A stretch of 25,709 bases of DNA from the IMG/VR virus record IMGVR_UViG_2547132488_000024, positions 1-25,709 of that record, one strand, 5' to 3'. The translations under genes were made by a program, and so were the position numbers. Shown in pieces: positions 769 through 25,709 of the stretch. Position 1 is the first letter of the stretch; each line of letters starts with the position of its first letter. This DNA comes from a virus. Taxonomy: Duplodnaviria > Heunggongvirae > Uroviricota > Caudoviricetes. The notes below the pieces were generated by a model. The model was not told the origin of the DNA and searched no databases. It saw nothing but the letters and a program-made list of their open reading frames with translations.

Positions 769-1311
769 TTACATTGTGTCTGGTTCTTCCGGCCATTCAA
801 TATCCGGCGCGGTCGATGTATCAACACGGTTTAGTAACACCCGATATTTCTTCCAGGTCAGTAACTGTTCCTTTTCCCCCTCTGTCGCCATATCCAAATC
901 CACAGCATCCCGAAGGGGGGCCATGCAATCATCGGCCTGTCGCATTAATAAGCTCTTTTTATTTTTTGCCTGCTGCACCAGTTCTTCATAAGTGCATTCC
1001 CGGTTAATTACCACGCCATCCTTAAACATCCATTTACCCGAAATATCAGCCCGGCGATTTGCTGTAATATCAGGTAATTCAACGACGCTTGCGCCTTCCG
1101 GATTAATTGCTGAAACATCCTTTTCAATACAAATAATAACGCCGTTGTGGTCATAGACCATTTTCAACGTATCAGGCTGAAAGTTCTTTTGTTCCTCATA
1201 CCAGTTTTTCCCATCCTCTGTATAAAGCCATTTGATGTTAAATTGTTTCGTTAGCTGGTATTGCTCTTTTGTTTTAGGGTTGCCAGCAGTAATGTTTTTT
1301 AAGTGCATCAT
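769..1311 (-). CDS. G: Tail fibre assembly protein (P2 gpG-like), 180 aa
   Basis: Position immediately downstream of and overlapping tail fibre gene; size as P2 G. Confidence 0.75.
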
Positions 1312-3416
1312 CGTTCAATACTCCCCGCGTTATACCACACCCCATTAATGCAATACTGAATTGGCCTTGCCTGAATTGTATCAATTAATTCATCACGGTT
1401 TTCGTTAACTGAACCCGTAACGACATAACCTGACCTGTCAGACCAGCCGGGGCCATGCCATGTCTTAACAGATAACAGACCGCCAAGGCGAATACCTGTA
1501 ATAAACCTTGAGTTACATTCTGCCCGCGTATATGCACCAACATCTCCCGCAGAAGGTTTGCGGGTTGTGGTGTAAAACTCTGACCAGTCAGCCTCAAATC
1601 CATAACCATCACGCGCTGAACGATAAAAAATACCGCCGTTCCTGTAATTCACGCGGAACTGTACAGCAGGGCAGCTCCCCGTATTCATATTGAAGTGGAG
1701 GATTAATGTCGATGCGCCACCAATGTTTGCGTTATAGACCCCGCTATTCCAGTTCCAGCCAACAGCTTTATCATTTCCGACAGTGCTTCCTGTTTGCCCT
1801 AAAGCAAATGCAGGCTGCTGGTTTTTCGTGTTGTAGTCTCGTCGCCAGCCAGGAGCGTAAGCATCACCATGATTAATATAAGTGAATTGAGCGTTAGTGA
1901 TTCCGCCGCCGCTGGACGTACTCGGCGTGGTAACGCGTATGGTCATTGCGCCGCGAGTGCCAATAACTTCCACCACAGCACCTGCAAGACAAATATTTCC
2001 GCAACCTGTATCTGTAATGACCTTATTGTTTGCATAAGCCCATGAGCCTTTGCACATCCAGTAAGGATGGTTAAATGCTCCCTGACTCTCCAGCCACGAA
2101 ATAAATTGCGCGGTTGTCCAGACCTGACTATCGCCACCAATATTCAGCCATGCGCTATATGCGCGGCAGGCACCAATATTTTTGGTGAAGGTATCTTTTC
2201 CCGGAATATCTGCGCCGTTCTGGTTTTTCTGTAATGCGCCAGAAGCCTGATTTACCGTTTCCTGTAAACCGAGGTATTCGATAACGGCAGCAACGGTCGA
2301 TTTCGCAAGAATATCCCGCCCGACTTTTGTCAGGGTTGCCAGGCTGGCGACATCATTCCCCGTAAAATACGGAAACCTGTCTGCCGCAGTAGCAAGCCCG
2401 GCCAGCGCCGTCAGGGTGGCATCTTTCGGTTGCTTACCCGCAAGCGCGTTAGTCATGGTGGTCGCAAAATTCGGGTCGTTGCCCAGCGCCGCCGCCAGCT
2501 CGTTCAGCGTGTTCAGTGCGTCAGGTGAAGAGTCTACAAGTGCGGCAATCGCGGCCATAACGAAAGCCGTGCTTGCGATTTGGGTATTATTCGTTCCCTG
2601 TTGTGCAGTTGGTGTTGTTGGCGTTCCGGTCAGTGCCGGGCTGTTTAATGGGGCTTTCTTGTTCGTTTCATCCATTACCGCCTTAACCGCTTTTGGTGTC
2701 GCTGCCAGCGTTTCAGACGTGCTGTTGGTTGCACTGCTGAGCTGGACTATCCCTTTTCGTGCCGTCGTGGAGTCCTGAGCGGTATATTTTCCGTTAGCCA
2801 GGTCATACGCGGCCTTAACCGCTTTCGGCGTTGCGGCCAGCGTTTCAGAATCGCTGTTAGTGGCGCTACTGAGTTGAACAAAGCCTTTTGCGGTCAGCGA
2901 GGCGTCCGGGTGACGTCGTGACTGTTCATGCTCTTTCAGTTTGTCATCCACGTAATCCACTGTGGCCATCACCATGGTGTTATCCACGGTAAGCGCCACG
3001 GTGGCAGTGCTGGATACGGTCAGAATGGTGCGAAATGTTTGTGCACGACCGGACCCTTCGGCAACGGCTGGCTTGTAACTTTCGGCAGTATTGCCCACCG
3101 CGATTAAATCGCCGTGCTCATCAAATACACCAATTTCCCGGATCCAGAATCCGCCCGTTTCAGGAGGAATAACCAGCTCCGCAATAATGCGGTTCTGATG
3201 TGTTGCGTCCAGGATGACGCGATTAACAGTGTGTCGCCACACCTCATGCACCAGACGGGTCTGCTTACTGTCTGGTGTGGGCAACGTGCCGCCACCGTCG
3301 CCCACGGCCATATGAGTCAGGCGGACAGGCTTACCATCTGGCGCGGCTGCCTGAGCTAATTTTTTGGCACCCGTATCGGTGATAACGGTTTTAAATTTAC
3401 GTGTTGTGGTACTCAT
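1308..3416 (-). CDS. H: Tail fibre protein (P2 gpH-like), 702 aa, conserved N-terminal half, tandem fibre repeats, divergent C-terminal receptor-binding part
   Basis: N-terminus and repeat QLSSATNS(D/T)[13 protein letters not shown] x2 resemble P2 H from memory. Confidence 0.9.
2679..2891 (-). repeat. Tandem in-frame ~132-nt repeat inside H (two copies of a 27-aa fibre motif, H residues ~176-202 and ~220-246)
   Basis: Near-identical protein and DNA segments read directly. Confidence 0.7.
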
Positions 3417-7796: not shown

Positions 7797-8116
7797 TCGT
7801 CCTTCTCCTTCACCCTGCGATTAAAGGCTGCAATAACCTTGTCGCGTGCTTTCTCTGCGCCCATAAAACCGATTGATGCGCCGATAAACGTCACGGCATC
7901 TTCAGGAAACCCGAAGAAGCGCAACGACCCGGCCACGGCCATGGCAAGAACGCCGCACGCCAGCGATCCCGTTACGGTCTGAACCAGTGTTCGTCCGTCA
8001 TAAAGACTCATCAGCGCGGAAATGCTGACCGCCGCGCCTACTGCATACACCGTTGGCAGGTGGTCAAAGAGCCACGCAATAACCTGCTCTGTGATCCCTG
8101 TTTGAATGGTGCTCAC
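7793..8116 (-). CDS. Holin, about 107 aa, GTG start 5 nt after RBS GGGGGAG, predicted TM segments
   Basis: Hydrophobic segments, charged C-terminus, position between X and endolysin; track ORF trimmed because its extension overlaps X. Confidence 0.6.
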   Translation of the reverse strand: MSTIQTGITEQVIAWLFDHLPTVYAVGAAVSISALMSLYDGRTLVQTVTGSLACGVLAMAVAGSLRFFGFPEDAVTFIGASIGFMGAEKARDKVIAAFNRRVKEKDE

Positions 8117-8118
8117 TG

Positions 8119-8319
8119 CTACTCCCCCCACAACTGAATCATTTCTCGTTTCTTCTTCTCCGGCTCCGGCATCTCCACTTCCTGCCCGGCGTCCAGAAAT
8201 ACCTGCTGACAGAGTCCGGGGTTGGCATCCAGCACCTTTTCGGTGACGCCCTGCGTCGTGCCGTAGTACCGGAAACAGAGCGAATCCACGGTGTCGCCTT
8301 CCAGTGCCTTCACTTTCAT
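8119..8319 (-). CDS. X: Tail protein X (LysM-like), 66 aa
   Basis: MKVKALEGDTVDSLCFRYYG similar to P2 X; ATGA overlap with L stop. Confidence 0.8.
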   Translation of the reverse strand: MKVKALEGDTVDSLCFRYYGTTQGVTEKVLDANPGLCQQVFLDAGQEVEMPEPEKKKREMIQLWGE

Positions 8320-8822
8320 CAGCACAACTCCGCAAAGATTCGCGGGCGGCACAGAATGTCAGAGATGGCCCAGCTCACATCGCGCCACAAATCCGATGTC
8401 TGTATATCCAGTGCGTCCGCCCGGCGGTCGCCCTTGTCCGTTGTGTCCGCATCGCGGTAACGCTCCAGAATCAGGGCGCGTGTGGCGGTATAAACAGCAT
8501 TGCGCCAGTGCCAGAGATTGACGCTTTCTCCGTTAATTACGGGTGCCGGAACATCGGCCAGCGTCTGATGGCCAGCCGCCTGCTGTTCCTGCTGCCACGC
8601 TTCCAGCTCGCGGGTAACGTGTGCCACGGCCCCGGTGGCGGTATGCAGCAGGCGGGAGGTGGTCACGCGCCCCGGCAGTCGTATCGCCAGACGCAGCTCA
8701 CGCAGCACAATATCCGGCCAGAATGCACCCGCTGAAATACGGGTATCACCATCATCGGTATCGGTGATGTCGTCCTCTGCGGGTCCGGGATTGGTTCTGG
8801 CAACCATACTCATGGGGTTCAC
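8319..8822 (-). CDS. L: Head completion/stabilisation protein L, 167 aa
   Basis: Synteny and size. Confidence 0.85.
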   Translation of the reverse strand: MNPMSMVARTNPGPAEDDITDTDDGDTRISAGAFWPDIVLRELRLAIRLPGRVTTSRLLHTATGAVAHVTRELEAWQQEQQAAGHQTLADVPAPVINGESVNLWHWRNAVYTATRALILERYRDADTTDKGDRRADALDIQTSDLWRDVSWAISDILCRPRIFAELC

Positions 8823-8914
8823 TCCTGAAAAAATCGGGCGGTGGGTGCGCGGTGTAAACGGTCACGGAGTCAAACCGGAACACCGCGCACGCCGCCCGCT
8901 GACGGGGTCAGCCG

Positions 8915-9715
8915 TTAACCGCGCTTCGCCTTCTGCGTCGCGGTGGTTTTTCGTGTTGCAGGCTTCCGCGTTGTCTTTTTACTTTTGCTGCTTTCGTCCT
9001 GCGCCTGTGGTGTGCTGGCGTCTTCTGGTGCGGCTGCGGAATCGGCTTTTTTCAGGGCGCGGGAAAGGGTTGCAATCTCGCGTTTCACACCTGCGTTCGG
9101 GTTCAGGTGCATTGCTTCGCGCAGCAGCTTCAGTGACAGGGCCATGCTGTCCGCATCACTCAGGCCACGGCGGGCAAAGGCGCAGGCCTTGCATAATTTG
9201 GCGCGCACTTCGTCCGGCATGTCCTGGTTGGTGACAATCTCCCGGAGGGTGTCCAGTGGTTCGATAAAGGCGGACAAATCCGCGTCGGCATCCGTCCCGG
9301 CCTGCGTCAGTACCGGGTTGCAGATTTCTTCGGTCAGTATCGTGGCAGCAGTACGTCCAAAGTTATCCGGCATGATGAGGTTGTGACGGACCACATATGC
9401 ACCAATACGCAGCGCCAGCGGAAGATCGCCGCAGTCAATCGCCCACACCATCAGCGTGGCAATCACTTCATCCTGCTGCCCGCCGTCAGCCTCCAGTGTT
9501 CCCTCAATCCAGCCGGAAAAGTCCGGCAACAACTCTTTTTTGATGGCGGCTTTGGCGCTTCTGGCCTGTACGCCCTTAAGCCGGGCCTGTGCCAGACGCA
9601 GACGATACAGCACCTCTTCATGCGCGGTACGCGCGGCGTGGTCCACGCCTTCATTCGCCCGGCCTGCGCGCTGTGCCATCACGTTCTGCCAGTGTTGCTG
9701 TGCAGGAGTAATCAT
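8915..9715 (-). CDS. M: Terminase endonuclease (small) subunit M, 266 aa
   Basis: Synteny and size; basic C-terminal tail. Confidence 0.85.
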   Translation of the reverse strand: MITPAQQHWQNVMAQRAGRANEGVDHAARTAHEEVLYRLRLAQARLKGVQARSAKAAIKKELLPDFSGWIEGTLEADGGQQDEVIATLMVWAIDCGDLPLALRIGAYVVRHNLIMPDNFGRTAATILTEEICNPVLTQAGTDADADLSAFIEPLDTLREIVTNQDMPDEVRAKLCKACAFARRGLSDADSMALSLKLLREAMHLNPNAGVKREIATLSRALKKADSAAAPEDASTPQAQDESSKSKKTTRKPATRKTTATQKAKRG

Positions 9716-9760
9716 TTGTTCTCTCCGTTACAGGCGGGCATGATGCCCGCCGTGAGTTGA

Positions 9761-10813
9761 TTAGCTGTCGGCGAACTTCAGGCCAGTGACCATCGCGCAC
9801 TTGCCATAGTCTTCAACGACATAAGCGTCATTGATGGACTGGTAGGTGGCGATGCGGTTGTATTCCGGTTCGTCTTTCATCAGACGACGCATTGAACCTT
9901 TCTGCCAGTAAATTGACAGGTTGTTGAATGAGGTGATCAGCATCGTTGAATCCGGGAAGAACGGCGCAAGGAACACGCCCAGCCCGCCAATGGTGCGCGA
10001 TGACAGAATGAGCTGCCCGGCGAGTAATTCCGCATTAGGATTCTGGCCGCTGATGCTGTTCAGCACGGGCAGACGCAGCGAGTTAAACAGGTTGCGCCCC
10101 ATAATCACCACGAGGTCGTCAGCTTCCTTGTGCCATTCATCCAGCAGGGATGAGCGCGCGTCCTGTACCAGTGCATCAGGGTTCGCATACTTACCCGCGT
10201 GTGCCACGGTGTTGTCCATGTTGCGGGAGGTCAGCGTCACGTCATTCATTACGCGCTCGCTGGCATTGGTTCTGATGTGCTCCAGCCATCCCACGTTAAC
10301 GTCCTGAAGCAGTTTGTTAGTGCCGAAATTGGATTTTTCCGCGTGTGATGTACCGTTGAAACCGATCATGATGCGGTCAAGTGCCACCTGTCGGGCAACC
10401 TGTGTACTGATGCGCGACTGAAAATCACTGTGCGCTGCCCATGCGTCAAGCCTCGGATATGAGATAAACGTGTCGTAGTTCACTTGTTCGCACTGGTACT
10501 GACGCGCTTTCATATCGACGACGTTAATCGGGTTACGGCGATCTGTACCATCATAACTGGTATTCGTGCGTGCAATCGGCCCTGTGGTGTCCAGGAGAAC
10601 TTTTTCGCCTTTCTGGTCAGTTACACCGATCACGTTAATTCTTTTCGTAAGTTCGGTACTTTCCTTTGAGGCGTTTTCAAAACGCTGTTGTATCGCCGGG
10701 TTGACGGTAAATCGCGATACCAGCGCAGAAACCGGGATATTGTTAAGCGACGCCTGCTGCGTCATGTAGCGGCCCAGCTTGTTACGGGCATTATCTGACA
10801 TCACCAGATTCAT
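9761..10813 (-). CDS. N: Major capsid protein N, 350 aa
   Basis: Synteny and size. Confidence 0.9.
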   Translation of the reverse strand: MNLVMSDNARNKLGRYMTQQASLNNIPVSALVSRFTVNPAIQQRFENASKESTELTKRINVIGVTDQKGEKVLLDTTGPIARTNTSYDGTDRRNPINVVDMKARQYQCEQVNYDTFISYPRLDAWAAHSDFQSRISTQVARQVALDRIMIGFNGTSHAEKSNFGTNKLLQDVNVGWLEHIRTNASERVMNDVTLTSRNMDNTVAHAGKYANPDALVQDARSSLLDEWHKEADDLVVIMGRNLFNSLRLPVLNSISGQNPNAELLAGQLILSSRTIGGLGVFLAPFFPDSTMLITSFNNLSIYWQKGSMRRLMKDEPEYNRIATYQSINDAYVVEDYGKCAMVTGLKFADS

Positions 10814-10835
10814 AAAAATTTGCTCCTTTGTCTTA

Positions 10836-11705
10836 TCAGAAGTCAGCCAGCTGGTCGGAGGCTGCGCCCGTTGCGGTGAACCGGTTCTGCGGATCGCCGT
10901 CCTGCGTGCGCAGTTTTTCCTTCAGTGCTGCCAGCTCTGTGGTCAGTGACGTAATTTTCTGGCGGTCCTGCTGATGGCGGGTTTCCAGCACATTAAAACG
11001 GTCGATAATGTCGGCCTGTGACGTTGCGACGCCTTCCACCGCTTCCTGAATACGGGAAAAACTGGCGTCATCCGCTTTGCGGCCACGGCCAATAATCCCC
11101 ATTACGCGGTTAAACCACTGGGTGCCTTCTTCCTGGCGTTGTTCTGCCATTTCGATGATTTCAGACTAGATGGCTTCGGAGATAAGCGGCGCTTCACCCT
11201 GGATACTGTTGAACGTCATCACCGCCTGACGTTGCTGTGCCGTGAATTTCAGGCGCTCAGTGCCCAGGCTTGCCGGGGTGTCGGTCATCGCCAGCCCGAC
11301 CAGATAGGCGCGCCCGTTAACGGAGAACTGCGGGTGCAGTTCGATACTGGAATAGATTTTCTTGCCGTCCGCGACAAGCTGCTTCATGCGCTCGGTCGGT
11401 TCGATTTCTGCATACAGCGCAGTACGTCCGGCCAGCGGACCTTCCGTAATGTCTTCCGTACTCAGTGCGGTGACATCGCCCATTGCGGAAAATTCGCTTG
11501 ACGGGCATGGCGAGAGATAGTGCTCAACGTTCACGCGGGCAGCGTAAACATCCGGGTTGAAGTTCTCGGCGGCTTCACGCAGATGCACCGGACTGATTTC
11601 ACGGCCATCAACAGTTGATCCGGAGACAGCCACGCGAAACTTTTTGCGGGATGTCTTTTTTTCATTAGCCATAGTTTTTGCCCCTCTGACTGGTTCTTCA
11701 GTCAT
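10836..11705 (-). pseudogene. O: Capsid scaffold/protease gene O interrupted by a single in-frame TAG (minus-strand codon at 11166-11168); 179-aa N-part and 104-aa C-part are in the same frame
   Basis: Both ORFs share frame; junction ...ISEAI-TAG-SEIIEMAEQRQ... is collinear with the middle of P2 gpO (about 284 aa). Confidence 0.8.
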
Positions 11706-11826
11706 GATGGCAAAGCGTAACAGGCTGATACAAAGGGCTTTTGTTGTAAGAAAACGGCCAGAACAGGGGGTTAAGGAGAACAGTTTCGCGCGCGGGTAAT
11801 CTTCCTGTAATTACTCAGGGGGAGCA

Positions 11827-13578
11827 ATGATTCAGGACGCTTTTGTGCGCCAGCGTGCGCGGCAACTTTACTGGCAGGGTTATCCGCCCGCAGAAATATC
11901 ACGTCTGATGGGAATAAACCCGAACACGATTTATGCGTGGAAAAAACGTGACCAGTGGGATGAAACGCCACCCGTGCAGCGTGTCACGCAGTCCATCGAT
12001 GCGCGCCTCATTCAGCTTACTGAAAAACAGAATAAAACAGGCGGTGACTTTAAGGAAATAGACCTGCTGACCCGGCAGCTTAAAAAGCTGCATGATGGCC
12101 AGCCGGATGTGATGGCCGCAGGAAAGAAAGGCCGGGCGAAAAAACTCAAAAATCATTTCACGCCGGAACAGATTTCCGCACTGCGGGAAAAAATCATCAG
12201 CAGGCTGGAGTGGCATCAGCGGGGCTGGTTTGACTCCCTGACACTTTGCAGGGAAGCCGGGATACGTAACAGGATGATCCTGAAATCCCGACAGATTGGG
12301 GCGACCTGGTATTTTGCACAGGAAGCTCTGCTGATGGCGCTGCGTGACGATGTGGCGCAACCTTACCAGCGTAACCAGATTTTTTTGTCTGCGTCGCGTC
12401 GTCAGGCGTTCCAGTTTAAAAGCATTATTCAGAAGGCCGCGGCTGAAGTTGATGTGGAGCTGAAAGGGGGCGATAAAATCATCCTCTCCAACGGCGCAGA
12501 GCTGCATTTTCTCGGCACTTCTGCTGCGTCGGCACAGTCCTATACGGGCAATTTTTATTTTGATGAATTTTTCTGGGTCAGTCGCTTTGCTGAACTGCGC
12601 AAGGTGGCTGGCGCTATGGCAACCCTCAGCGGACTGCGGCGCACCTACTTCTCCACGCCATCCACCGAAACGCACGAGGCATACGCCTACTGGAACGGCG
12701 ACCGCTGGAATGAGAAAAAGGCCACGCATAAACGCCAGCGTTTTTCTGTGGACTGGAAAACGCTGCATAACGGGCTTATCTGCCCTGACCGGACGTGGCG
12801 GCAAATTGTCACGCTGGAAGATGTGGTTAATTACGGCTGGAAACACACCGATATCGACGAAATTCGTGATGAAAACACCGAAGACGAGTTCCTCAATCTC
12901 TATATGTGTGAGTTTGTCCGCGAAGGGGAATCGGCATTTAACCTGAATATCCTGATTGGCTGCGGTGTTGACGGATACGACGACTGGAAAGACTGGAAAC
13001 CTTTTGCTCCCCGCCCGATGGGGAATCGTCCGGTATGGATTGGGTATGACGCAAACGGCAGCAGTGGCAACGGCGACAGCGGCGCTGTGTCCGTGGTGGT
13101 TCCTCCGGCTGTTCCTGGTGGCCGTTTTCGAACGGTGGAGACGCGACGCGTTCAGGGGCTGGAGTTTGAAGAACAGGCCAGAGTCATTGAAGAGTTCACG
13201 TGTCGCTACAACGTGGAACACATCGGCATTGATGTGACGGGCGGGAACGGGGAGGCTGTTTATCAGATAGTGAAACGGTTTTTCCCTGCTGCTATTCCGT
13301 ACACCTTCACGCTGTCATCAAAACGGTCGCTGGTACTGAAAATGCTGCAAATAATGCGTGCCGGGCGGTGGGAATACGATCGCGCCGAACGCGAGCTGGT
13401 CGCGGCCTTTAACGCCGTGCGTAAGGTGAAAACACCGGGCGGCTTTATCACTTACGAAACGGACCGAGCGAGGGGGATCAGCCACGGCGACCTTGCGTGG
13501 GCAACCATGCTTGCTGTCATTAACGAACCGATTGGCGGCGAAGGAGAAAACGAGCGTTTCACGGTTATGGAGTTCTGA
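11827..13578 (+). CDS. P: Terminase ATPase (large) subunit P, 583 aa
   Basis: Synteny, size, divergent from O. Confidence 0.9.
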   Translation: MIQDAFVRQRARQLYWQGYPPAEISRLMGINPNTIYAWKKRDQWDETPPVQRVTQSIDARLIQLTEKQNKTGGDFKEIDLLTRQLKKLHDGQPDVMAAGKKGRAKKLKNHFTPEQISALREKIISRLEWHQRGWFDSLTLCREAGIRNRMILKSRQIGATWYFAQEALLMALRDDVAQPYQRNQIFLSASRRQAFQFKSIIQKAAAEVDVELKGGDKIILSNGAELHFLGTSAASAQSYTGNFYFDEFFWVSRFAELRKVAGAMATLSGLRRTYFSTPSTETHEAYAYWNGDRWNEKKATHKRQRFSVDWKTLHNGLICPDRTWRQIVTLEDVVNYGWKHTDIDEIRDENTEDEFLNLYMCEFVREGESAFNLNILIGCGVDGYDDWKDWKPFAPRPMGNRPVWIGYDANGSSGNGDSGAVSVVVPPAVPGGRFRTVETRRVQGLEFEEQARVIEEFTCRYNVEHIGIDVTGGNGEAVYQIVKRFFPAAIPYTFTLSSKRSLVLKMLQIMRAGRWEYDRAERELVAAFNAVRKVKTPGGFITYETDRARGISHGDLAWATMLAVINEPIGGEGENERFTVMEF

Positions 13579-14624
13579 TGAGCAGAAAAAATAAAAAAGT
13601 GCGCATGAGTTCACGCATTGATCTCGCTGATGCGCTCAGGAAAGAATCATCGCTCAGTGCATTCACATTTGATGGTCCTTATCGCCTGACCGGGCATGAC
13701 CTGCTGGACAATATGTACTGTGCTGATAACGGGCGGTGGTATGAAACCCCGGTGGACTGGTACGGTCTGGCAAGAGCTGCCCGGCAAACGTCCTGGCATC
13801 AGTCTGCGCTTTACTTTAAGCGCAATGTATTACTCGGTTGCTACATCCCGCACCCGCTGCTTTCCCGGCAGGATTTCTCGGCGCTGGCGCTGGACTGGTT
13901 TGTGTTCGGTAACGCATTTCTTGAGCTTCGAAGCAATATGCTCGGCGAACCGCTTAAATTACGGCACGCACTGGCGAAATACATGCGACGCGGAAGCGAT
14001 CTTGAATCATGGTGGTATGTGCAGGATGGCAAGGACGCGTTCCAGTTTCGCCCTGGCAAAGTGTGCCACCTGATGAATCCGGATATTAACCAGGAAATTT
14101 ACGGCATGCCGGAATATCTTGGCGCATTACTCTCGGCCAGCCTGTCTCATTCGGCGGACATGTTCAGAAAACTGTACTACGACAATGGATCCCACGCCGG
14201 GTGCATCATCTACATCGGTGCAGCGCAGGTAAACCGCGAAAGCATGGACTCCCTGAAAGAAACGTTACAGGGTGCACGTGGTGGTGGTGCGTTTAAAAAT
14301 GTGCTCATTCATGCGCCCAACGGGGGCAAAGAAGGGGTGCAAATTTTGCCGTTCCAGCAGATCACCGCAAAAGATGAGTTCATGAATGTTAAGGCGGCAT
14401 CCCGTGATGATGTGCTGGCTGCGCACCGCGTTCCGCCGCAACTGATGGGGGCGATGCCGGGCGAAAAAAGTGCGTTTGGTGATGTGGAGAAGGCCGCGCG
14501 GGTTTACGCAATTAACGAGCTGATGCCCGTCATGGAGGCCATGAAGCACATCAATGACTGGCTTGGCGAAGATGTGATCCGCTTTAACCCTTACGCACTG
14601 TTAGACACCCAGCCCACATCCTGA
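13578..14624 (+). CDS. Q: Portal protein Q, 348 aa; start overlaps P stop (TGATG)
   Basis: Synteny and size. Confidence 0.9.
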   Translation: MSRKNKKVRMSSRIDLADALRKESSLSAFTFDGPYRLTGHDLLDNMYCADNGRWYETPVDWYGLARAARQTSWHQSALYFKRNVLLGCYIPHPLLSRQDFSALALDWFVFGNAFLELRSNMLGEPLKLRHALAKYMRRGSDLESWWYVQDGKDAFQFRPGKVCHLMNPDINQEIYGMPEYLGALLSASLSHSADMFRKLYYDNGSHAGCIIYIGAAQVNRESMDSLKETLQGARGGGAFKNVLIHAPNGGKEGVQILPFQQITAKDEFMNVKAASRDDVLAAHRVPPQLMGAMPGEKSAFGDVEKAARVYAINELMPVMEAMKHINDWLGEDVIRFNPYALLDTQPTS

Positions 14625-14650
14625 CGCGCTTCGCTTGTCTGCTGCTTCGC

Positions 14651-14673
14651 CGGGGCATAAAAAATTTATGCCC
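14651..14673. terminator. Perfect 10-bp stem hairpin GGGGCATAAA-AAA-TTTATGCCCC just downstream of Q; terminator or cos-proximal structure
   Basis: Perfect inverted repeat; no strong T-run. Confidence 0.4.
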
Positions 14674-14960
14674 CGACTCTCCAGCTCCTGTATCAGTCAG
14701 ATAATTTCACGACGCTTTCCTGCTGATTGCCATCATCGACAGTCAGACTCTTACGCAATCCCACCGCGTTGACTGCATGTTCTCGCCGTCTCAGTGCGAT
14801 TTTGACGGCCTTACCTTTCACCCCATTAAATCAAAAGCCCTCACGTCTTTTTCATGCTCAGCGTGAGAAATACGGCCATTCTGTCGTGTCTCTGCGACAT
14901 CGTTCAGGGAATGCTATTTACCCCCTGAAACGCGGGCTGTTCCCCCGTCACCTGCGCGCA

Positions 14961-15078
14961 GAAAAAACGCGTTTTTTTGTGCACGTACGGATCCTTGACG
15001 GATCCAGCCACCACGCGGGCCGGAAGTACAAAAAGTCGTTCAAAAAAATTGTGCAAACTTGTGCACTATCGTGCAAAC
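14961..15078. promoter_or_regulatory. Cluster of phased repeats: 16-bp palindrome AAAAAACGCGTTTTTT (14962-14977), direct repeats ACGGATCC (14987, 14998; 11-bp phase), GTGCAAAC (15051, 15071; 20-bp phase); candidate packaging/cos or operator region
   Basis: Exact repeats read directly; lies between portal gene and accessory genes where P2 has cos. Confidence 0.35.
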
Positions 15079-15102
15079 AAAAAAAGCGCCTTATCGGCGC
15101 TT
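15078..15102 (-). terminator. Intrinsic terminator for the minus-strand 89-aa gene (stem AAGCGCC/GGCGCTT, then T7 on minus strand)
   Basis: Hairpin plus A-run on plus strand directly after the stop at 15111. Confidence 0.6.
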
Positions 15103-15110
15103 CAAAAGTA

Positions 15111-15380
15111 TCAATTGTTGCTGTGTATTAATCGCCAACCACGAACATATGCTTCATAGGCATCTCTGTGCCTTACAGTTCCAGCCTGGCTAAACGGAAT
15201 GTTAGCTAAAACTAAATCATTCTGAGCCATAGCGCGTCCTTCAAGCGCATCTTTTATGCCTAGCTCAAAAGCACAGGCAGCGCATTTGTGCCGACCTTCT
15301 TGTCCTTGATATTCAGGGAGAGACAGAAATGTTGGATTATAACGATGAGGGTTCTTGCAAATACCTGTTTTAGCCCGCAC
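15111..15380 (-). CDS. Hypothetical protein, 89 aa (GTG start; possible internal ATG starts), Cys/His-containing, AT-rich codons; orphan accessory gene
   Basis: ORF with its own downstream terminator; no family recognised. Confidence 0.4.
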   Translation of the reverse strand: MRAKTGICKNPHRYNPTFLSLPEYQGQEGRHKCAACAFELGIKDALEGRAMAQNDLVLANIPFSQAGTVRHRDAYEAYVRGWRLIHSNN

Positions 15381-15403
15381 TTTATTTACCTCATAGGAAA
15401 AAT

Positions 15404-15490
15404 ATGCGTGCCTTTACAGAGGTGCGTGTAAGCAATAAAATATACGACGCACATTTTGATTTACTTCGGAAGGCACGCATATCAGGTTAA
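15404..15490 (+). CDS. Candidate small ORF (28 aa, MRAFTEVRVSNKIYDAHFDLLRKARISG) with RBS AGGA; start and end embedded in a 13-bp perfect inverted repeat; may instead be a structured sRNA
   Basis: RBS spacing 5 nt, followed by strong terminator; IR 15402-15414 / 15470-15482. Confidence 0.25.
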   Translation: MRAFTEVRVSNKIYDAHFDLLRKARISG

Positions 15491-15510
15491 GTGAGTCCGA
15501 CCGAGTTTTA

Positions 15511-15544
15511 CGCCCCAATAGTTGCTGCTATTGGGGCGTTTTGC
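15511..15544 (+). terminator. Rho-independent terminator (11-bp perfect stem CGCCCCAATAG/CTATTGGGGCG, loop TTGCTG, then TTTT)
   Basis: Perfect stem followed by T-run on plus strand. Confidence 0.7.
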
Positions 15545-15744
15545 ATGGACAATGCCGCGCAATTATCTTGTCGCTCACAATGCGAACGATCTTACAAAAA
15601 GGCACATTACTGTCAAGATAATTGATCGTTTTAATCGATAGATAATAGACAATCTATTTGTTTAACAGATCGATTATTGAAGTAAGTGTGCCAGATGGAA
15701 TGATACTGTCTCTATAAACGTGAGCATTTTTCGCGCAGATGCTT

Positions 15745-16056
15745 TTACTCAGGAAATAACGCCCGGATATTCCCAGCCATCTGGCTGGTTATCTTAGCCA
15801 CTGGTGCAGACTGTGCTTCAAACTTTTTTGAGCTGATTTGTGTCACAGGTAATATCTCATCATCAGCCCATGCGGCCAGTCGGTAAGCCTCTGCCGGATT
15901 CGTCTTCAGAAGTGCCAGCCCGGCCAGAAAAGCCACGCGTTGGCCGCTTTTGCGGGCTTCTGGTGTAAGGCTGTCCAGCCAGGCGCATGCTTCTCCTTCG
16001 TTCTTGACGGCAGCTGGCTTCAGATAGAAACTTATTCTTCTGGTTGGTGTCGTCAT
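15745..16056 (-). CDS. parR: ParR-like centromere-binding adaptor, 103 aa (RHH-type N-terminus similar to R1 ParR)
   Basis: Immediately downstream of parM with RBS AAGGAG; ISFYLKP...LDSL...AFLAGLALL resembles R1 ParR from memory. Confidence 0.6.
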   Translation of the reverse strand: MTTPTRRISFYLKPAAVKNEGEACAWLDSLTPEARKSGQRVAFLAGLALLKTNPAEAYRLAAWADDEILPVTQISSKKFEAQSAPVAKITSQMAGNIRALFPE

Positions 16057-16060
16057 TGGT

Positions 16061-17020
16061 TTACTCCTTGTTCATTGCGTACAGCCCATTAACCAGAGCA
16101 AATTGTGGCACCCCGTCCGCGATGAAAGTCGCATTAACTCCGCAGGCTTCGCGGATAGCGGGTGCCACAATCTCCGCCCCGCCACCGACAACCATCACCC
16201 GCCCGTAACCCGAAAAAACCGCCAGAGCGCGGATCACGCGTTGTTTCAGTGTTTCTTCCTTTTCACGAATAATCGCCATCAGGCTGGCGTAATGCGCGTC
16301 ATTGTGGATGTGCTGGCGCAACCAGGCTTCATCATGGCGATGTTCGATAATGGTATTGGCGATGTGGTGACTGGTGCGCATACCGTTAGTGGCCATCACC
16401 GACAGTACGGCATCGGCCATCAGAGAAACGCCTACGTGTGGATCGCAAAACACCTGGCTGATACCTGCCAGTTGCCCCTGAACCTTTGCCACATCCAGCG
16501 TGGTTCCGCCCAAATCCACAATCAGCAGGGATTCAAACGGACTCATGTCAGCCAGTGCCTTAAAGCCAGCCGGAATGGATTCAGGCATAACCCGCACGTT
16601 ACGGATAGTGAATGCTTCGCCGTTCTGGTACTCCACCGGGCGCATAACGTTCGCTTTTTTGCGGTTGATGTTGGCCATGTCCGGCTGTGCGTTTGTGTCG
16701 AAATACTCGCTCAGTGGCAGGGTGACAACCACATCCACCTCCCGTGGCGTGATGCCTGATTTGACCAGCGCGTGATGAATGGCAATGACATTCACATCGC
16801 TGTACTGGTATTGCGTGTCGGTCGTCTGGACAAAGCGATCGCTGACCGGATCAAAACCATAGCGCACGCCATCAAGCATGTAGTTCGCGGGCTGCGTGCC
16901 ACCGAACGGCGCAGACCATTCCGACTTGAAGCTGTTCGGGCTGATGGCGTTGCGGCGTTCGCCGTTCTCAGTCCATGCCAGCTTGATGTTGGTGGAGCCG
17001 TCGTCGATACAAATTCTCAT
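16061..17020 (-). CDS. parM: ParM/StbA-like actin-family partition ATPase, 319 aa
   Basis: IDDGSTNIKLAW, DLGGTTLD and VVGGGAEI phosphate/adenosine motifs; collinear similarity to R1 ParM from memory. Confidence 0.8.
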   Translation of the reverse strand: MRICIDDGSTNIKLAWTENGERRNAISPNSFKSEWSAPFGGTQPANYMLDGVRYGFDPVSDRFVQTTDTQYQYSDVNVIAIHHALVKSGITPREVDVVVTLPLSEYFDTNAQPDMANINRKKANVMRPVEYQNGEAFTIRNVRVMPESIPAGFKALADMSPFESLLIVDLGGTTLDVAKVQGQLAGISQVFCDPHVGVSLMADAVLSVMATNGMRTSHHIANTIIEHRHDEAWLRQHIHNDAHYASLMAIIREKEETLKQRVIRALAVFSGYGRVMVVGGGAEIVAPAIREACGVNATFIADGVPQFALVNGLYAMNKE

Positions 17021-24255: not shown

Positions 24256-24350
24256 GTGATAATCTCCCTGTTTGGGGTATTTCTTGCGACGGATGCCCCA
24301 AATCAAACTCATTTGTATAAACATTAATACAGACGTTGGAGAATTGCAAC
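24256..24350. promoter_or_regulatory. Divergent cox-like/C promoter-operator region with inverted repeat TTTGGGGTA ... TGCCCCAAA
   Basis: Intergenic position between divergent regulator genes; inverted repeat read directly. Confidence 0.5.
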
Positions 24351-24653
24351 ATGCGTATGACTATTGGAGAGCGCATAAAAATCATGCGTGAAAGCGAGAG
24401 ACTTACTAGCCTCCCGGATACAGCAAAAATGCTTGGTTTAAACCGTGATGCTCTGTGGAGATATGAAAGCGGTAAAACTATCCCTAATGCTGAAGTAATT
24501 GAGCAAATACTAAACAACCCCAGATTTGAGAAATATGCGTTGTGGTTTATGACTGGGAAAATTGCGCCTGAATCCGGGCAGATAGCTCCGGCTCTCGCAC
24601 ACTATGGGCAAGAGCCAACGGACTTACCCCCATCCGAAAGGAAAATTGGCTAA
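24351..24653 (+). CDS. C: Immunity repressor C (P2 C-like), 100 aa
   Basis: LWFMTGKIAPESGQIAPALAHYGQ closely matches P2 C from memory; RBS GGAGA. Confidence 0.9.
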   Translation: MRMTIGERIKIMRESERLTSLPDTAKMLGLNRDALWRYESGKTIPNAEVIEQILNNPRFEKYALWFMTGKIAPESGQIAPALAHYGQEPTDLPPSERKIG

Positions 24654-24719
24654 CCCTTTATTATTCTTACGTTTTACAAACTGGAAATGTCTTTCCTCGT
24701 TTCACCGGAGGGCTTGCCA

Positions 24720-25709
24720 ATGGCAATTAAAGCGCTCGATGGTGGACGGTATAAAGTGGATGTTAGACCGCGTGGCCGAAGTGGACGTCGGATTCAGCGG
24801 ATTTTTAAGAAAAAGGCAGATGCAGTGGCCTTTGAGCGTTATGTTCTCAGCCACATGCACGATAAGGAATGGCTTGAAAAGCCAACAGAGCAACGTCATC
24901 TCTCAGATCTGCTTCCATTATGGTGGGAATTGGGTGGACGCAATAAGCCATATGCTAACGGCGTTCTAACCAGGTTGAAAAAAATCATCAAAGAAATGAA
25001 TGATCCAAGGGTTAGCCAGATTAATGCTCGTTTCATGGCCGCTTATCGAAGCTCCCGTTTATCCTTGGGAGTAAAAGAGTCTACTGTTCGGCGTGATGAG
25101 TCGGATCTCGGAGGAATGTTTACACTCCTGGCAAATGCCGGGGAATTTCACGGAGAAAATCCGCTCCGCGCCCTCCCCTCTTTGAAACGAAAATCACCCG
25201 AAATGACGTATCTCACCACGGAAGAAATCGCCAAATTACTGGATGCAGTAAGCGGTGATGCCCGGCGGATTACGCTACTTTGTCTCAGTACTGGGGCGAG
25301 ATGGGGAGAAGCGAAAAATCTGCGCGCGGAACACATCATCAATAATCGCGTGACGTTTAACAAAACTAAAAACGGAAAAGTTCGAATTATTCCTGTCTCT
25401 GATGAAGTTGTTAGTGAGATCAAAACAAAGAAATCCGGCCTTTTGTTTGACGTCAATTATGAGGAATATCGCAAGGTGCTTCGCAGTGTTAAGCCAGACC
25501 TACCAAAAGGACAGGCTGTACATGTTCTACGCCATACCTTTGCTGCTCACTTTATGATTAATGGAGGAAATATACTTACGCTCCAGCGAATTATGGGGCA
25601 CGCCACGATCCAGCAAACTATGACCTATGCGCACCTCGCTCCTGATTTCCTCCAGGATGCAATTTCACTTAATCCGTTAAAAGGAGGCATCCACATTTCA
25701 TCCACATAA
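24720..25709 (+). CDS. int: Tyrosine integrase (P2 Int-like), 329 aa from ATG 24720 (RBS GGAGG); stop coincides with window end
   Basis: MAIK..DGGRY.VD..P.GR start, LSTGARWGEA, HVLRHTFA.HFMINGG and YAHLAP catalytic-region motifs match P2 Int. Confidence 0.9.
   Translation: MAIKALDGGRYKVDVRPRGRSGRRIQRIFKKKADAVAFERYVLSHMHDKEWLEKPTEQRHLSDLLPLWWELGGRNKPYANGVLTRLKKIIKEMNDPRVSQINARFMAAYRSSRLSLGVKESTVRRDESDLGGMFTLLANAGEFHGENPLRALPSLKRKSPEMTYLTTEEIAKLLDAVSGDARRITLLCLSTGARWGEAKNLRAEHIINNRVTFNKTKNGKVRIIPVSDEVVSEIKTKKSGLLFDVNYEEYRKVLRSVKPDLPKGQAVHVLRHTFAAHFMINGGNILTLQRIMGHATIQQTMTYAHLAPDFLQDAISLNPLKGGIHISST

What the first reader, a model, noticed from the sequence alone, without database searches (positions are those of the whole stretch)
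11148..11171. In-frame amber (TAG) codon splits capsid scaffold gene O
Minus-strand ORFs 11166..11705 and 10836..11150 share one frame, separated only by TAG at 11166-11168 and five sense codons. The junction falls in the middle of the region collinear with P2 gpO, not at a domain boundary, and the downstream ATG has no convincing RBS. This is a nonsense allele of an essential morphogenetic gene. It would make the prophage non-productive unless the host suppresses amber codons, or the base call is wrong.
Basis: seen in the sequence. Interest (0 to 1): 0.55.

Follow-up and report, generated by a model that had tools for sequence, protein, structure and literature searches.

The report
One-off stop codon in prophage scaffold gene
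A single G-to-T change (GAG to TAG) has cut the head-scaffold/protease gene gpO of a P88-like (P2-family) prophage in one draft E. coli genome; every relative examined has the intact codon, so this is an ordinary recent knock-out mutation or a base-call error, not a new gene arrangement.

Summary
On the minus strand, two same-frame ORFs are separated by TAG (11168-11166) and five sense codons. Together they form one collinear Phage_GPO protein (Pfam PF05929, profile 2-159 and 166-267).

The window is 100% identical to E. coli draft contig APZX01000373.1 (GCA_000357685.2) and carries a P88-like prophage. The stop is one G>T change from GAG (Glu).
- GAG is found in P88 and four other phages.
- It is found in 119/119 IMG/VR contigs and 131/131 fetched loci.
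- No complete E. coli genome (928 places) matches an 81-nt probe carrying TAG.
- The six other contigs with the window's exact gpN allele have an intact gpO; one differs from the window at 2 of 6,053 bases.
- The repaired protein occurs verbatim on at least 1,000 contigs.

The other P88 head, lysis and tail genes in the window, and most early genes, are full length.

The break lies in the poorly conserved linker between the protease and scaffold domains (P2 residue 166, inside 142-194). The downstream ATG has no Shine-Dalgarno sequence and is not conserved.

Verdict: a private nonsense allele that probably makes the prophage head-defective, or a sequencing error. Low interest.

The parts
11166..11168 (-). 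In-frame amber codon TAG (codon 169 counted from ATG 11672). The derived base is the T at 11168 (A on the + strand). The ancestral codon is GAG (Glu).
   Evidence: 131/131 other loci have G at 11168, and 119/119 IMG/VR contigs have GAG.
11169..11672 (-). gpO 5' part, 168 codons. It holds the protease domain (D33/H62/S120 in long-ORF numbering, equal to P2 D19/H48/S107), the equivalent of the P2 autocleavage site (F154/T155, equal to P2 141/142) and the first part of the linker.
   Evidence: Pfam PF05929 profile 2-159. Alignment to P2 gpO and P88.
11681..11687 (-). Shine-Dalgarno sequence (AGAGGGG) for the real gpO start at ATG 11672.
   Evidence: SD duplex -7.4 kcal/mol. The start matches the P88 annotation.
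11673..11705 (-). In-frame upstream extension of the longest ORF (MTEEPVRGAKT). Probably not translated.
   Evidence: No SD at ATG 11705 (+1.5 kcal/mol). P2 and P88 gpO begin at the second ATG.
11151..11165 (-). Five sense codons (SEIIE) between the stop and the next ATG. They are part of the normal gpO linker.
10836..11150 (-). gpO 3' part, 104 codons plus stop. It holds the rest of the linker and the whole C-terminal scaffolding domain (equal to P2 195-284). It starts at an internal Met that has no SD and is not conserved (Leu in phage 500465-2, Phe in P2).
   Evidence: Pfam PF05929 profile 166-267..
9761..10813 (-). gpN major capsid protein, the next gene in the operon. It is intact and is the target of gpO scaffolding and cleavage.
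   Evidence: tblastn against P88 gpN gives a full-length match with no stops. PF05125.
11827..13578 (+). gpP large terminase, divergently transcribed from gpO. Intact; included as context.

Best explanation
The gene is gpO, the fused head-maturation protease and internal scaffolding protein of a P88-like (Xuanwuvirus, P2 family) prophage in a draft E. coli genome. A single G>T transversion converted Glu codon 169 (GAG) into amber (TAG). The change is very recent and private to this one assembly.

Shown here: translation from the real start (ATG 11672) would end after 168 residues, giving a protease domain without its C-terminal scaffolding domain.

Inferred: the scaffolding domain in the downstream 104 codons is not made, or is made only in traces. 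Its ATG has no Shine-Dalgarno sequence, and the stop is followed by T. From my own knowledge, not checked here, that is a comparatively efficient termination context.

Inferred from P2 work: gpO is needed to assemble procapsids, probably to incorporate the portal, and to cleave gpN, gpO and gpQ. The prophage should therefore be unable to build functional heads. Its replication, lysis and tail genes are intact. An untranslated 315-nt stretch could also reduce expression of the downstream genes N, M and L through polarity. This is an early step of prophage decay, not a designed two-gene arrangement.
For: - Same frame and collinear Pfam GPO halves.
- The codon is GAG in P88, 503458, Chuche, P88_4B11 and 500465-2.
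- None of 928 places in 845 complete E. coli genomes is identical to an 81-nt probe carrying TAG; the best differ by one base.
- A 35-mer with TAG has no match in the GTDB species genomes, IMG/VR or JGI metagenomes.
- 119/119 IMG/VR matches read GAG.
- The only contig on record with a complete 168-aa product plus stop is APZX01000373.1, which is the window itself.
- Of 7 contigs with the window's exact gpN allele, the 6 others have an intact 278-aa gpO. Two of them were read at the DNA level and show GAG. One differs from the window at only 2 of 6,053 bases. Another is 99.90% identical over 12.9 kb.
- The repaired protein exists verbatim on at least 1,000 contigs.
- All other P88 head, lysis and tail genes in the window, and most early genes, are full length and stop-free.
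- The ORF2 start has SD energy +0.1 kcal/mol against -3.2 to -10.3 for 14 real starts.
- The Met is not conserved.
- There is no tRNA gene in the window or in P88.
- The essential roles of gpO are described in PMC7552001 and PMC6893505.
- The window's other private variants are mostly synonymous (14 of 23 coding), so the contig does not look error-ridden.
Against: - No reads were available, so a consensus base-call error in this fragmented draft (contig number 373) cannot be excluded.
- The break lies in the inter-domain linker, and an ATG lies 15 nt downstream. Some termination-reinitiation, giving a separate scaffolding domain, is physically possible.
- The host genome outside the contig could not be checked for amber suppressors, or for a second P2-like prophage that could supply gpO in trans.
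- Non-productivity was not tested.
Confidence: 0.66

Rival explanations
1. Base-call or assembly error. The isolate really has GAG, and the T at 11168 is a consensus error in a fragmented draft assembly. The prophage gene would then be intact.
For: - The allele is a singleton: one contig in all collections searched.
- The nearest sibling contig differs at only this and one other base in 6 kb.
- The source is a draft with at least 373 contigs.
- From my own knowledge, G>T is a typical oxidative-damage artefact.
Against: - No frameshifts or other stops occur in the other P88 genes across the window, apart from one doubtful 47-aa ORF.
- The other window-private variants are mostly synonymous, as expected of real variation rather than random error.
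- About 3% of random substitutions in this gene give a stop. With thousands of copies on record, a few real nonsense alleles are expected. An independent one was seen in SRR31538338.
- The same contig is listed for 2 samples, though whether these are independent is unknown.
Confidence: 0.24
2. Functional split. After termination at TAG, ribosomes reinitiate at the ATG 15 nt downstream. The phage then makes a separate protease (168 aa) and a separate scaffolding protein (104 aa), comparable to phages that encode protease and scaffold as distinct products. It would remain viable.
For: - The break falls in the variable linker (P2 142-194), leaving both domains whole (PMC7552001).
- The P2 C-terminal domain 195-284 is described as the internal scaffolding protein absolutely required for P2 procapsid assembly.
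- Bacterial post-termination ribosomes can restart within about 40 nt (PMC5972666).
- A second, independent amber 11 codons upstream exists in another sample.
Against: - There is no SD before the ATG, and reinitiation is reported to depend on an SD-like sequence.
- The Met is not conserved in Gemsvirus or P2.
- The allele is a singleton, while at least 1,000 contigs carry the intact version.
- No natural split homologue was found.
- A protease detached from the scaffold domain would, by inference, not be targeted into the procapsid.
- The second amber is explained by ascertainment. Only stops between Met152 and Met175 produce the 104-aa product that I searched for.
Confidence: 0.05
3. The stop is read through. 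The host carries an amber suppressor tRNA, or basal UAG read-through supplies enough full-length gpO for some particle production.
For: None found directly. Amber mutants of phage morphogenetic genes are classically viable in suppressor hosts (own knowledge).
Against: - No tRNA gene in the window, the rest of the source contig that was fetched, or the P88 genome.
- From my own knowledge, natural E. coli isolates rarely carry amber suppressors.
- Scaffolding protein is needed in large copy number, so trace read-through would hardly suffice (inference).
Confidence: 0.05

Closest known systems
gpO of Escherichia phage P88 (Xuanwuvirus P88; YP_009113068.1 / AIZ95133.1)
   Same: 98.9% amino-acid identity over all 278 residues and 98.3% DNA identity over the region. 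The position is the same: between the divergent terminase gene P and the capsid gene N.
   Different: P88 has GAG (Glu169) where the window has TAG. P88 gpO is one uninterrupted 278-codon gene.
gpO of bacteriophage P2 (NP_046759.1; Pfam PF05929. From memory it is filed as MEROPS peptidase family S73; not checked here)
   Same: Collinear over the full length at 35-37% identity. Residues aligned with P2 D19/H48/S107 are conserved. The motif around the autocleavage site is conserved, and the C-terminus is helical. The domain map (protease 1-141, middle 142-194, scaffold 195-284) comes from PMC7552001.
   Different: P2 gpO is a single polypeptide. In the window the reading frame is broken at the equivalent of P2 residue 166.
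Classical amber mutants of phage morphogenetic genes, and point-mutation decay of prophages
   Same: A single nonsense codon in an essential head gene of an otherwise intact temperate phage genome. The predicted phenotype is defective heads unless suppressed.
   Different: This one is natural (or an artefact) in a clinical or environmental draft genome, not a selected laboratory allele. Its phenotype is untested.
Phages with separate or nested protease and scaffold products (e.g. lambda C/Nu3; recalled from memory, not tested here)
   Same: If ORF2 were expressed, protease and scaffold would be separate polypeptides encoded in one frame.
   Different: From memory, in lambda the internal start is a conserved, dedicated initiation site and the protease still carries the scaffold-like C-terminus. 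Here the ATG lacks an SD, is not conserved, and the arrangement is a singleton.

Membership tests
GPO family capsid scaffolding protein / serine peptidase (Pfam PF05929) | Significant match to the PF05929 profile over its full length | tested here: met
   The read-through protein matches profile 2-267 of 268 at 303 bits, against a cut-off of 33.6. The halves score 221.8 and 63 bits.
GPO family capsid scaffolding protein / serine peptidase (Pfam PF05929) | N-terminal serine protease residues (P2 S107, shown by the protease-deficient S107A mutant in PMC7552001; D19 and H48 recalled from Chang et al. 2009, which could not be read here) | tested here: met
   D33, H62 and S120 (long-ORF numbering) align with P2 D19, H48 and S107. 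They are invariant in a 4-sequence alignment.
GPO family capsid scaffolding protein / serine peptidase (Pfam PF05929) | C-terminal scaffolding domain fused to the protease in one polypeptide | tested here: not met
   The domain is present (window residues 210-289, equal to P2 195-284) but is separated from the protease by TAG at codon 169. This is a disrupted member (pseudogene allele) of the family, not a different family.
GPO family capsid scaffolding protein / serine peptidase (Pfam PF05929) | Genomic position: first gene of the O-N-M-L late operon, divergent from P-Q | tested here: met
   The gene order Q, P (+ strand) and O, N, M, L, X, holin... (- strand) is identical to P88 and P2.
GPO family capsid scaffolding protein / serine peptidase (Pfam PF05929) | Protease and scaffolding activity | not testable with these tools
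   Needs expression and assembly assays.
Naturally split protease + scaffold gene pair | The split is conserved across related genomes | tested here: not met
   The allele is a singleton. Short GPO C-terminal homologues turned out to be fragments or to lie in globally broken loci.
Naturally split protease + scaffold gene pair | The downstream gene has its own initiation signals (SD plus a conserved start codon) | tested here: not met
   SD energy is +0.1 kcal/mol. The start Met is replaced by Leu in 500465-2 and Phe in P2.

The most novel reading that the evidence does not exclude
The amber codon sits exactly in the dispensable-looking linker. Termination-reinitiation at the ATG 15 nt downstream could yield a free scaffolding domain plus a free protease. 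This prophage would then be a natural experiment showing that the P2-type protease-scaffold fusion can work as two polypeptides, and a possible evolutionary intermediate between fused and separate protease/scaffold systems.
Probability: 0.04. Interest if true: 0.4.

Novelty: already known. Interest (0 to 1): 0.1.

Why it matters
It matters little beyond annotation. The gene should be marked as a gpO pseudogene (or the base checked), and the prophage scored as probably head-defective despite looking complete. This is relevant to anyone predicting inducible phages or P4-type satellite helpers from this genome. It is also a textbook snapshot of the first step of prophage decay: one nonsense hit on a background otherwise identical to a very common functional allele.

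Tried and rejected
- I looked for the TAG allele elsewhere: E. coli complete genomes, GTDB species genomes, IMG/VR, JGI metagenomes, and exact-product look-ups. Only the source contig was found.
- The many '168-aa' and '104-aa' GPO products on record looked at first like recurrent splits. All but two are contig-end truncations that read GAG, GA or G where the codon is visible, or end just before it.
- I looked for natural stand-alone scaffold-domain homologues with an exhaustive HMMER search using ORF2. There were only 25 hits. The short ones are fragments (a 629-nt contig) or lie in a locus where terminase, GPO and capsid are all broken.
- An AlphaFold2 single-sequence model of the intact protein was too poor to define the linker (pLDDT 42.8) and was not used. 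No solved structure of a relative exists by sequence.
- The primary papers on gpO domains (Chang et al. 2008, 2009) are not held in the library. The domain limits are taken from the same group's later paper, PMC7552001.
- A phage-encoded suppressor tRNA was looked for and not found.
- No internal promoter was found on the gene strand.
This was replaced by the cluster look-up and by using the window's rare gpN allele to find sibling prophages.

Full report
**Observation**

On the minus strand, an ORF that opens at ATG 11705 (or at ATG 11672, see below) ends at TAG 11168-11166. Five sense codons follow (TCT GAA ATC ATC GAA). An ATG at 11150 then opens a 104-codon ORF in the same frame, ending at 10836. 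Both ORFs match Pfam PF05929 (Phage_GPO) in collinear order. ORF1 matches profile positions 2-159 (E 1.6e-65) and ORF2 matches 166-267 of 268 (E 4.6e-17). The read-through protein matches 2-267 (E 2.1e-90).

The real start is very probably ATG 11672. It has a good Shine-Dalgarno sequence (AGAGGGG, duplex -7.4 kcal/mol) and is the annotated start in P88. ATG 11705 has none (+1.5 kcal/mol). The stop is therefore codon 169 of a 278-codon gene.

**What the locus is**

The region is 98.3% identical to Escherichia phage P88 (Xuanwuvirus, Peduoviridae) and is similar to about 1,100 E. coli chromosomal prophages. Over 20,507 bases the window is 100% identical to NCBI contig APZX01000373.1 of assembly GCA_000357685.2. 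The proteins of that contig are named as Escherichia coli.

The gene order is that of P2 and P88: Q and P on one strand; O, N, M, L, X, holin, endolysin, R, S, V, W, J, I, H, G on the other. A tblastn of the P88 proteins against the window gives full-length, single-piece, stop-free matches for every head, lysis and tail gene and most early genes, with two exceptions: gpO itself, and a doubtful 47-aa hypothetical ORF. A few small early or cargo genes have no counterpart. The integrase and repressor are only 42-50% identical. The tail-fibre genes H and G have diverged C-terminal ends, which is normal mosaic variation. The prophage is therefore not broadly decayed.

**Nature of the change**

In P88, 503458, Chuche, P88_4B11 and the more distant 500465-2, the codon is GAG (Glu). 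The window differs by one G>T change. The evidence that TAG is private to this contig is as follows.

- An 81-nt probe centred on the stop finds 928 places in 845 complete E. coli genomes. None is identical; the best differ by one base.
- A 35-mer containing TAG has no match in 185,579 GTDB species genomes, in IMG/VR or in JGI metagenome contigs.
- Across all loci fetched, 131 of 131 have G at window position 11168.

Exact-product look-ups at first seemed to show many '168-aa' and '104-aa' GPO proteins. Inspection shows these are contigs that happen to end or begin there. They read GAG, GA or G where the codon is visible, or end just before it. The only complete 168-aa-plus-stop gene is on APZX01000373.1.

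I then used the window's rare gpN allele as a lineage marker. Seven contigs encode exactly that gpN. The six others are called with an intact 278-aa gpO, and the two that I read at the DNA level have GAG. One of them (Logan SRR28368700) differs from the window at 2 of 6,053 bases: the stop site and one base in gpM. Another (ENA ERZ19692968) is 99.90% identical to the source contig over 12.9 kb. The stop is thus a tip-of-the-tree singleton on a very common functional background.

Aligned with P2 gpO, the stop corresponds to P2 residue 166 and the downstream Met to residue 171. According to PMC7552001, the P2 gpO domains are:

- residues 1-141: the protease;
- residues 195-284: the internal scaffolding domain;
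- residues 142-194: a middle portion of uncertain role, perhaps portal incorporation.

The residues aligned with P2 D19, H48 and S107 all lie in ORF1. So does the equivalent of the 141/142 autocleavage site. S107 is documented by the protease-deficient S107A mutant in the same paper; the other two residues I recall from Chang et al. 2009, which I could not read. The whole scaffolding domain lies in ORF2.

In a four-sequence alignment, invariant columns are dense up to F154 (long-ORF numbering) and sparse from 155 to about 205. The break is therefore in the variable inter-domain linker, not in the middle of a domain.

**Can ORF2 be expressed?**

- The 20 nt before its ATG give an SD duplex energy of +0.1 kcal/mol. 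Fourteen real gene starts in the window give -3.2 to -10.3.
- The Met is Leu in 500465-2 and Phe in P2, so it is not a conserved internal start.
- No promoter-like site lies on the gene strand inside the gene.
- Bacterial post-termination ribosomes can restart within roughly 40 nt. However, restart is reported at start codons preceded by an SD-like sequence, and second-cistron translation depends strongly on the SD (PMC5972666, PMC3592434).

Some reinitiation cannot be excluded, but it should be weak, and scaffolding protein is needed in large amounts. A protease severed from the scaffold domain would also lack its presumed means of entering the procapsid (inference).

No natural two-gene homologue was found. 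An exhaustive HMMER search with ORF2 gave 25 hits. The short ones were fragments, or lay in a locus where terminase, GPO and capsid genes are all broken.

**Real mutation or error?**

I cannot see the reads. Points in favour of a real mutation:

- The window has no frameshifts.
- Of 23 window-private coding variants in 6.7 kb, 14 are synonymous. That is what real variation under selection looks like; random errors would be about 75% non-synonymous.
- About 3% of all single-base substitutions in this gene create a stop. With thousands of copies sequenced, a few genuine nonsense alleles are expected.
- An independent one exists: CAG>TAG, 11 codons upstream, in SRR31538338.

Points in favour of an error:

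- The allele is a singleton in a highly fragmented draft.
- The nearest sibling is otherwise almost identical.

I put a real mutation at about two thirds and an error at about one quarter.

**Mechanism committed to**

The allele is a recent loss-of-function amber mutation. The lysogen would make a 168-residue protease fragment and little or no scaffolding domain. By analogy with P2, where gpO is essential for viable P2 and P4 particles, it would fail to assemble and mature heads. Excision, replication, lysis and tail genes remain intact.

The steps shown are the lesion, its uniqueness, its position, and the lack of initiation signals. The steps inferred are lack of ORF2 translation, possible polarity on N-M-L, and the defective-head phenotype.

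**Comparison and novelty**

This is a disrupted member of the GPO family, nearest to P88 gpO. Nonsense inactivation of prophage genes is commonplace. Nothing here is a new kind of system. The only mildly interesting reading is a viable split at the linker through reinitiation, to which I give about 4%.

Noticed in passing
L007 (Logan SRR31538338_3), locus about 2950-2952; equivalent to window 11199-11201: An independent amber allele of the same gpO: CAG>TAG (Gln158, 278-aa numbering), 11 codons upstream of the window's stop. The codon that is TAG in the window is a normal GAG there. It was found only because it yields the same 104-aa downstream product.
   Followed up: partly
window 1001-2288: This segment aligns to P88 25639-26926 in the opposite orientation to all the rest of the window. 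As a result, tail-fibre ORF 1308..3416 (702 aa) joins the N-terminal approximately 500 residues of P88 gpH to the alternative C-terminal cassette (P88 'tail fiber protein' 25952-26695, 97% identity). The invertible host-range segment is flipped relative to the P88 reference. No invertase gene lies inside the window.
   Followed up: partly
window 14625-15745 (between portal gene Q and the partition genes): This is a variable cargo hotspot. Here it holds only tiny ORFs. Sibling prophages carry different cargo at the same place: Fic + Phd/YefM (L015); HTH_3-Peptidase_M78 + a DUF3368/PIN-like gene (L146); Gp49 + HTH_37, HigB/HigA-like (L147); DUF4760 + an unknown gene (L151, L016); and a ClpX-zinc-finger ORF (P88).
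   Followed up: no
window 10324-10771 (5' third of gpN): Thirteen of the 24 window-private base differences in 8000-14700 cluster here, and gpN is only 91% identical to P88 gpN while its neighbours are 97-100%. This looks like a recombined patch from a rare lineage. Only 7 contigs on record encode exactly this gpN.
   Followed up: partly
window 24336-25709: The integrase (340-codon ORF reaching the window end) and the adjacent HTH repressor are only 50% and 42% identical to those of P88. The prophage therefore has a different integration and immunity module from P88 despite near-identical late genes.
   Followed up: no
window 15745-17020: ParM/StbA-like (319 aa) and Plasmid_stab_B (103 aa) partition genes lie inside the prophage, as in P88. 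This suggests a capacity for plasmid-like maintenance.
   Followed up: no
window 14844-14984: The counterpart of the P88 47-aa hypothetical protein SF19_gp21 contains one in-frame stop. It is doubtful that this is a real gene.
   Followed up: no
protein clusters (P0003): Hundreds of 'partial' GPO proteins on record come from draft contigs that break inside gpO. Separately, a 148-aa truncated GPO named for Shigella flexneri is seen on 246 contigs, which suggests a lineage-fixed truncated gpO remnant there.
   Followed up: no
(APZX01000373.1): The tool lists 'samples_with_this_contig: 2' for the source contig. If the second sample is an independent read set, it would argue against a base-call error. 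I could not find out what it is.
   Followed up: no
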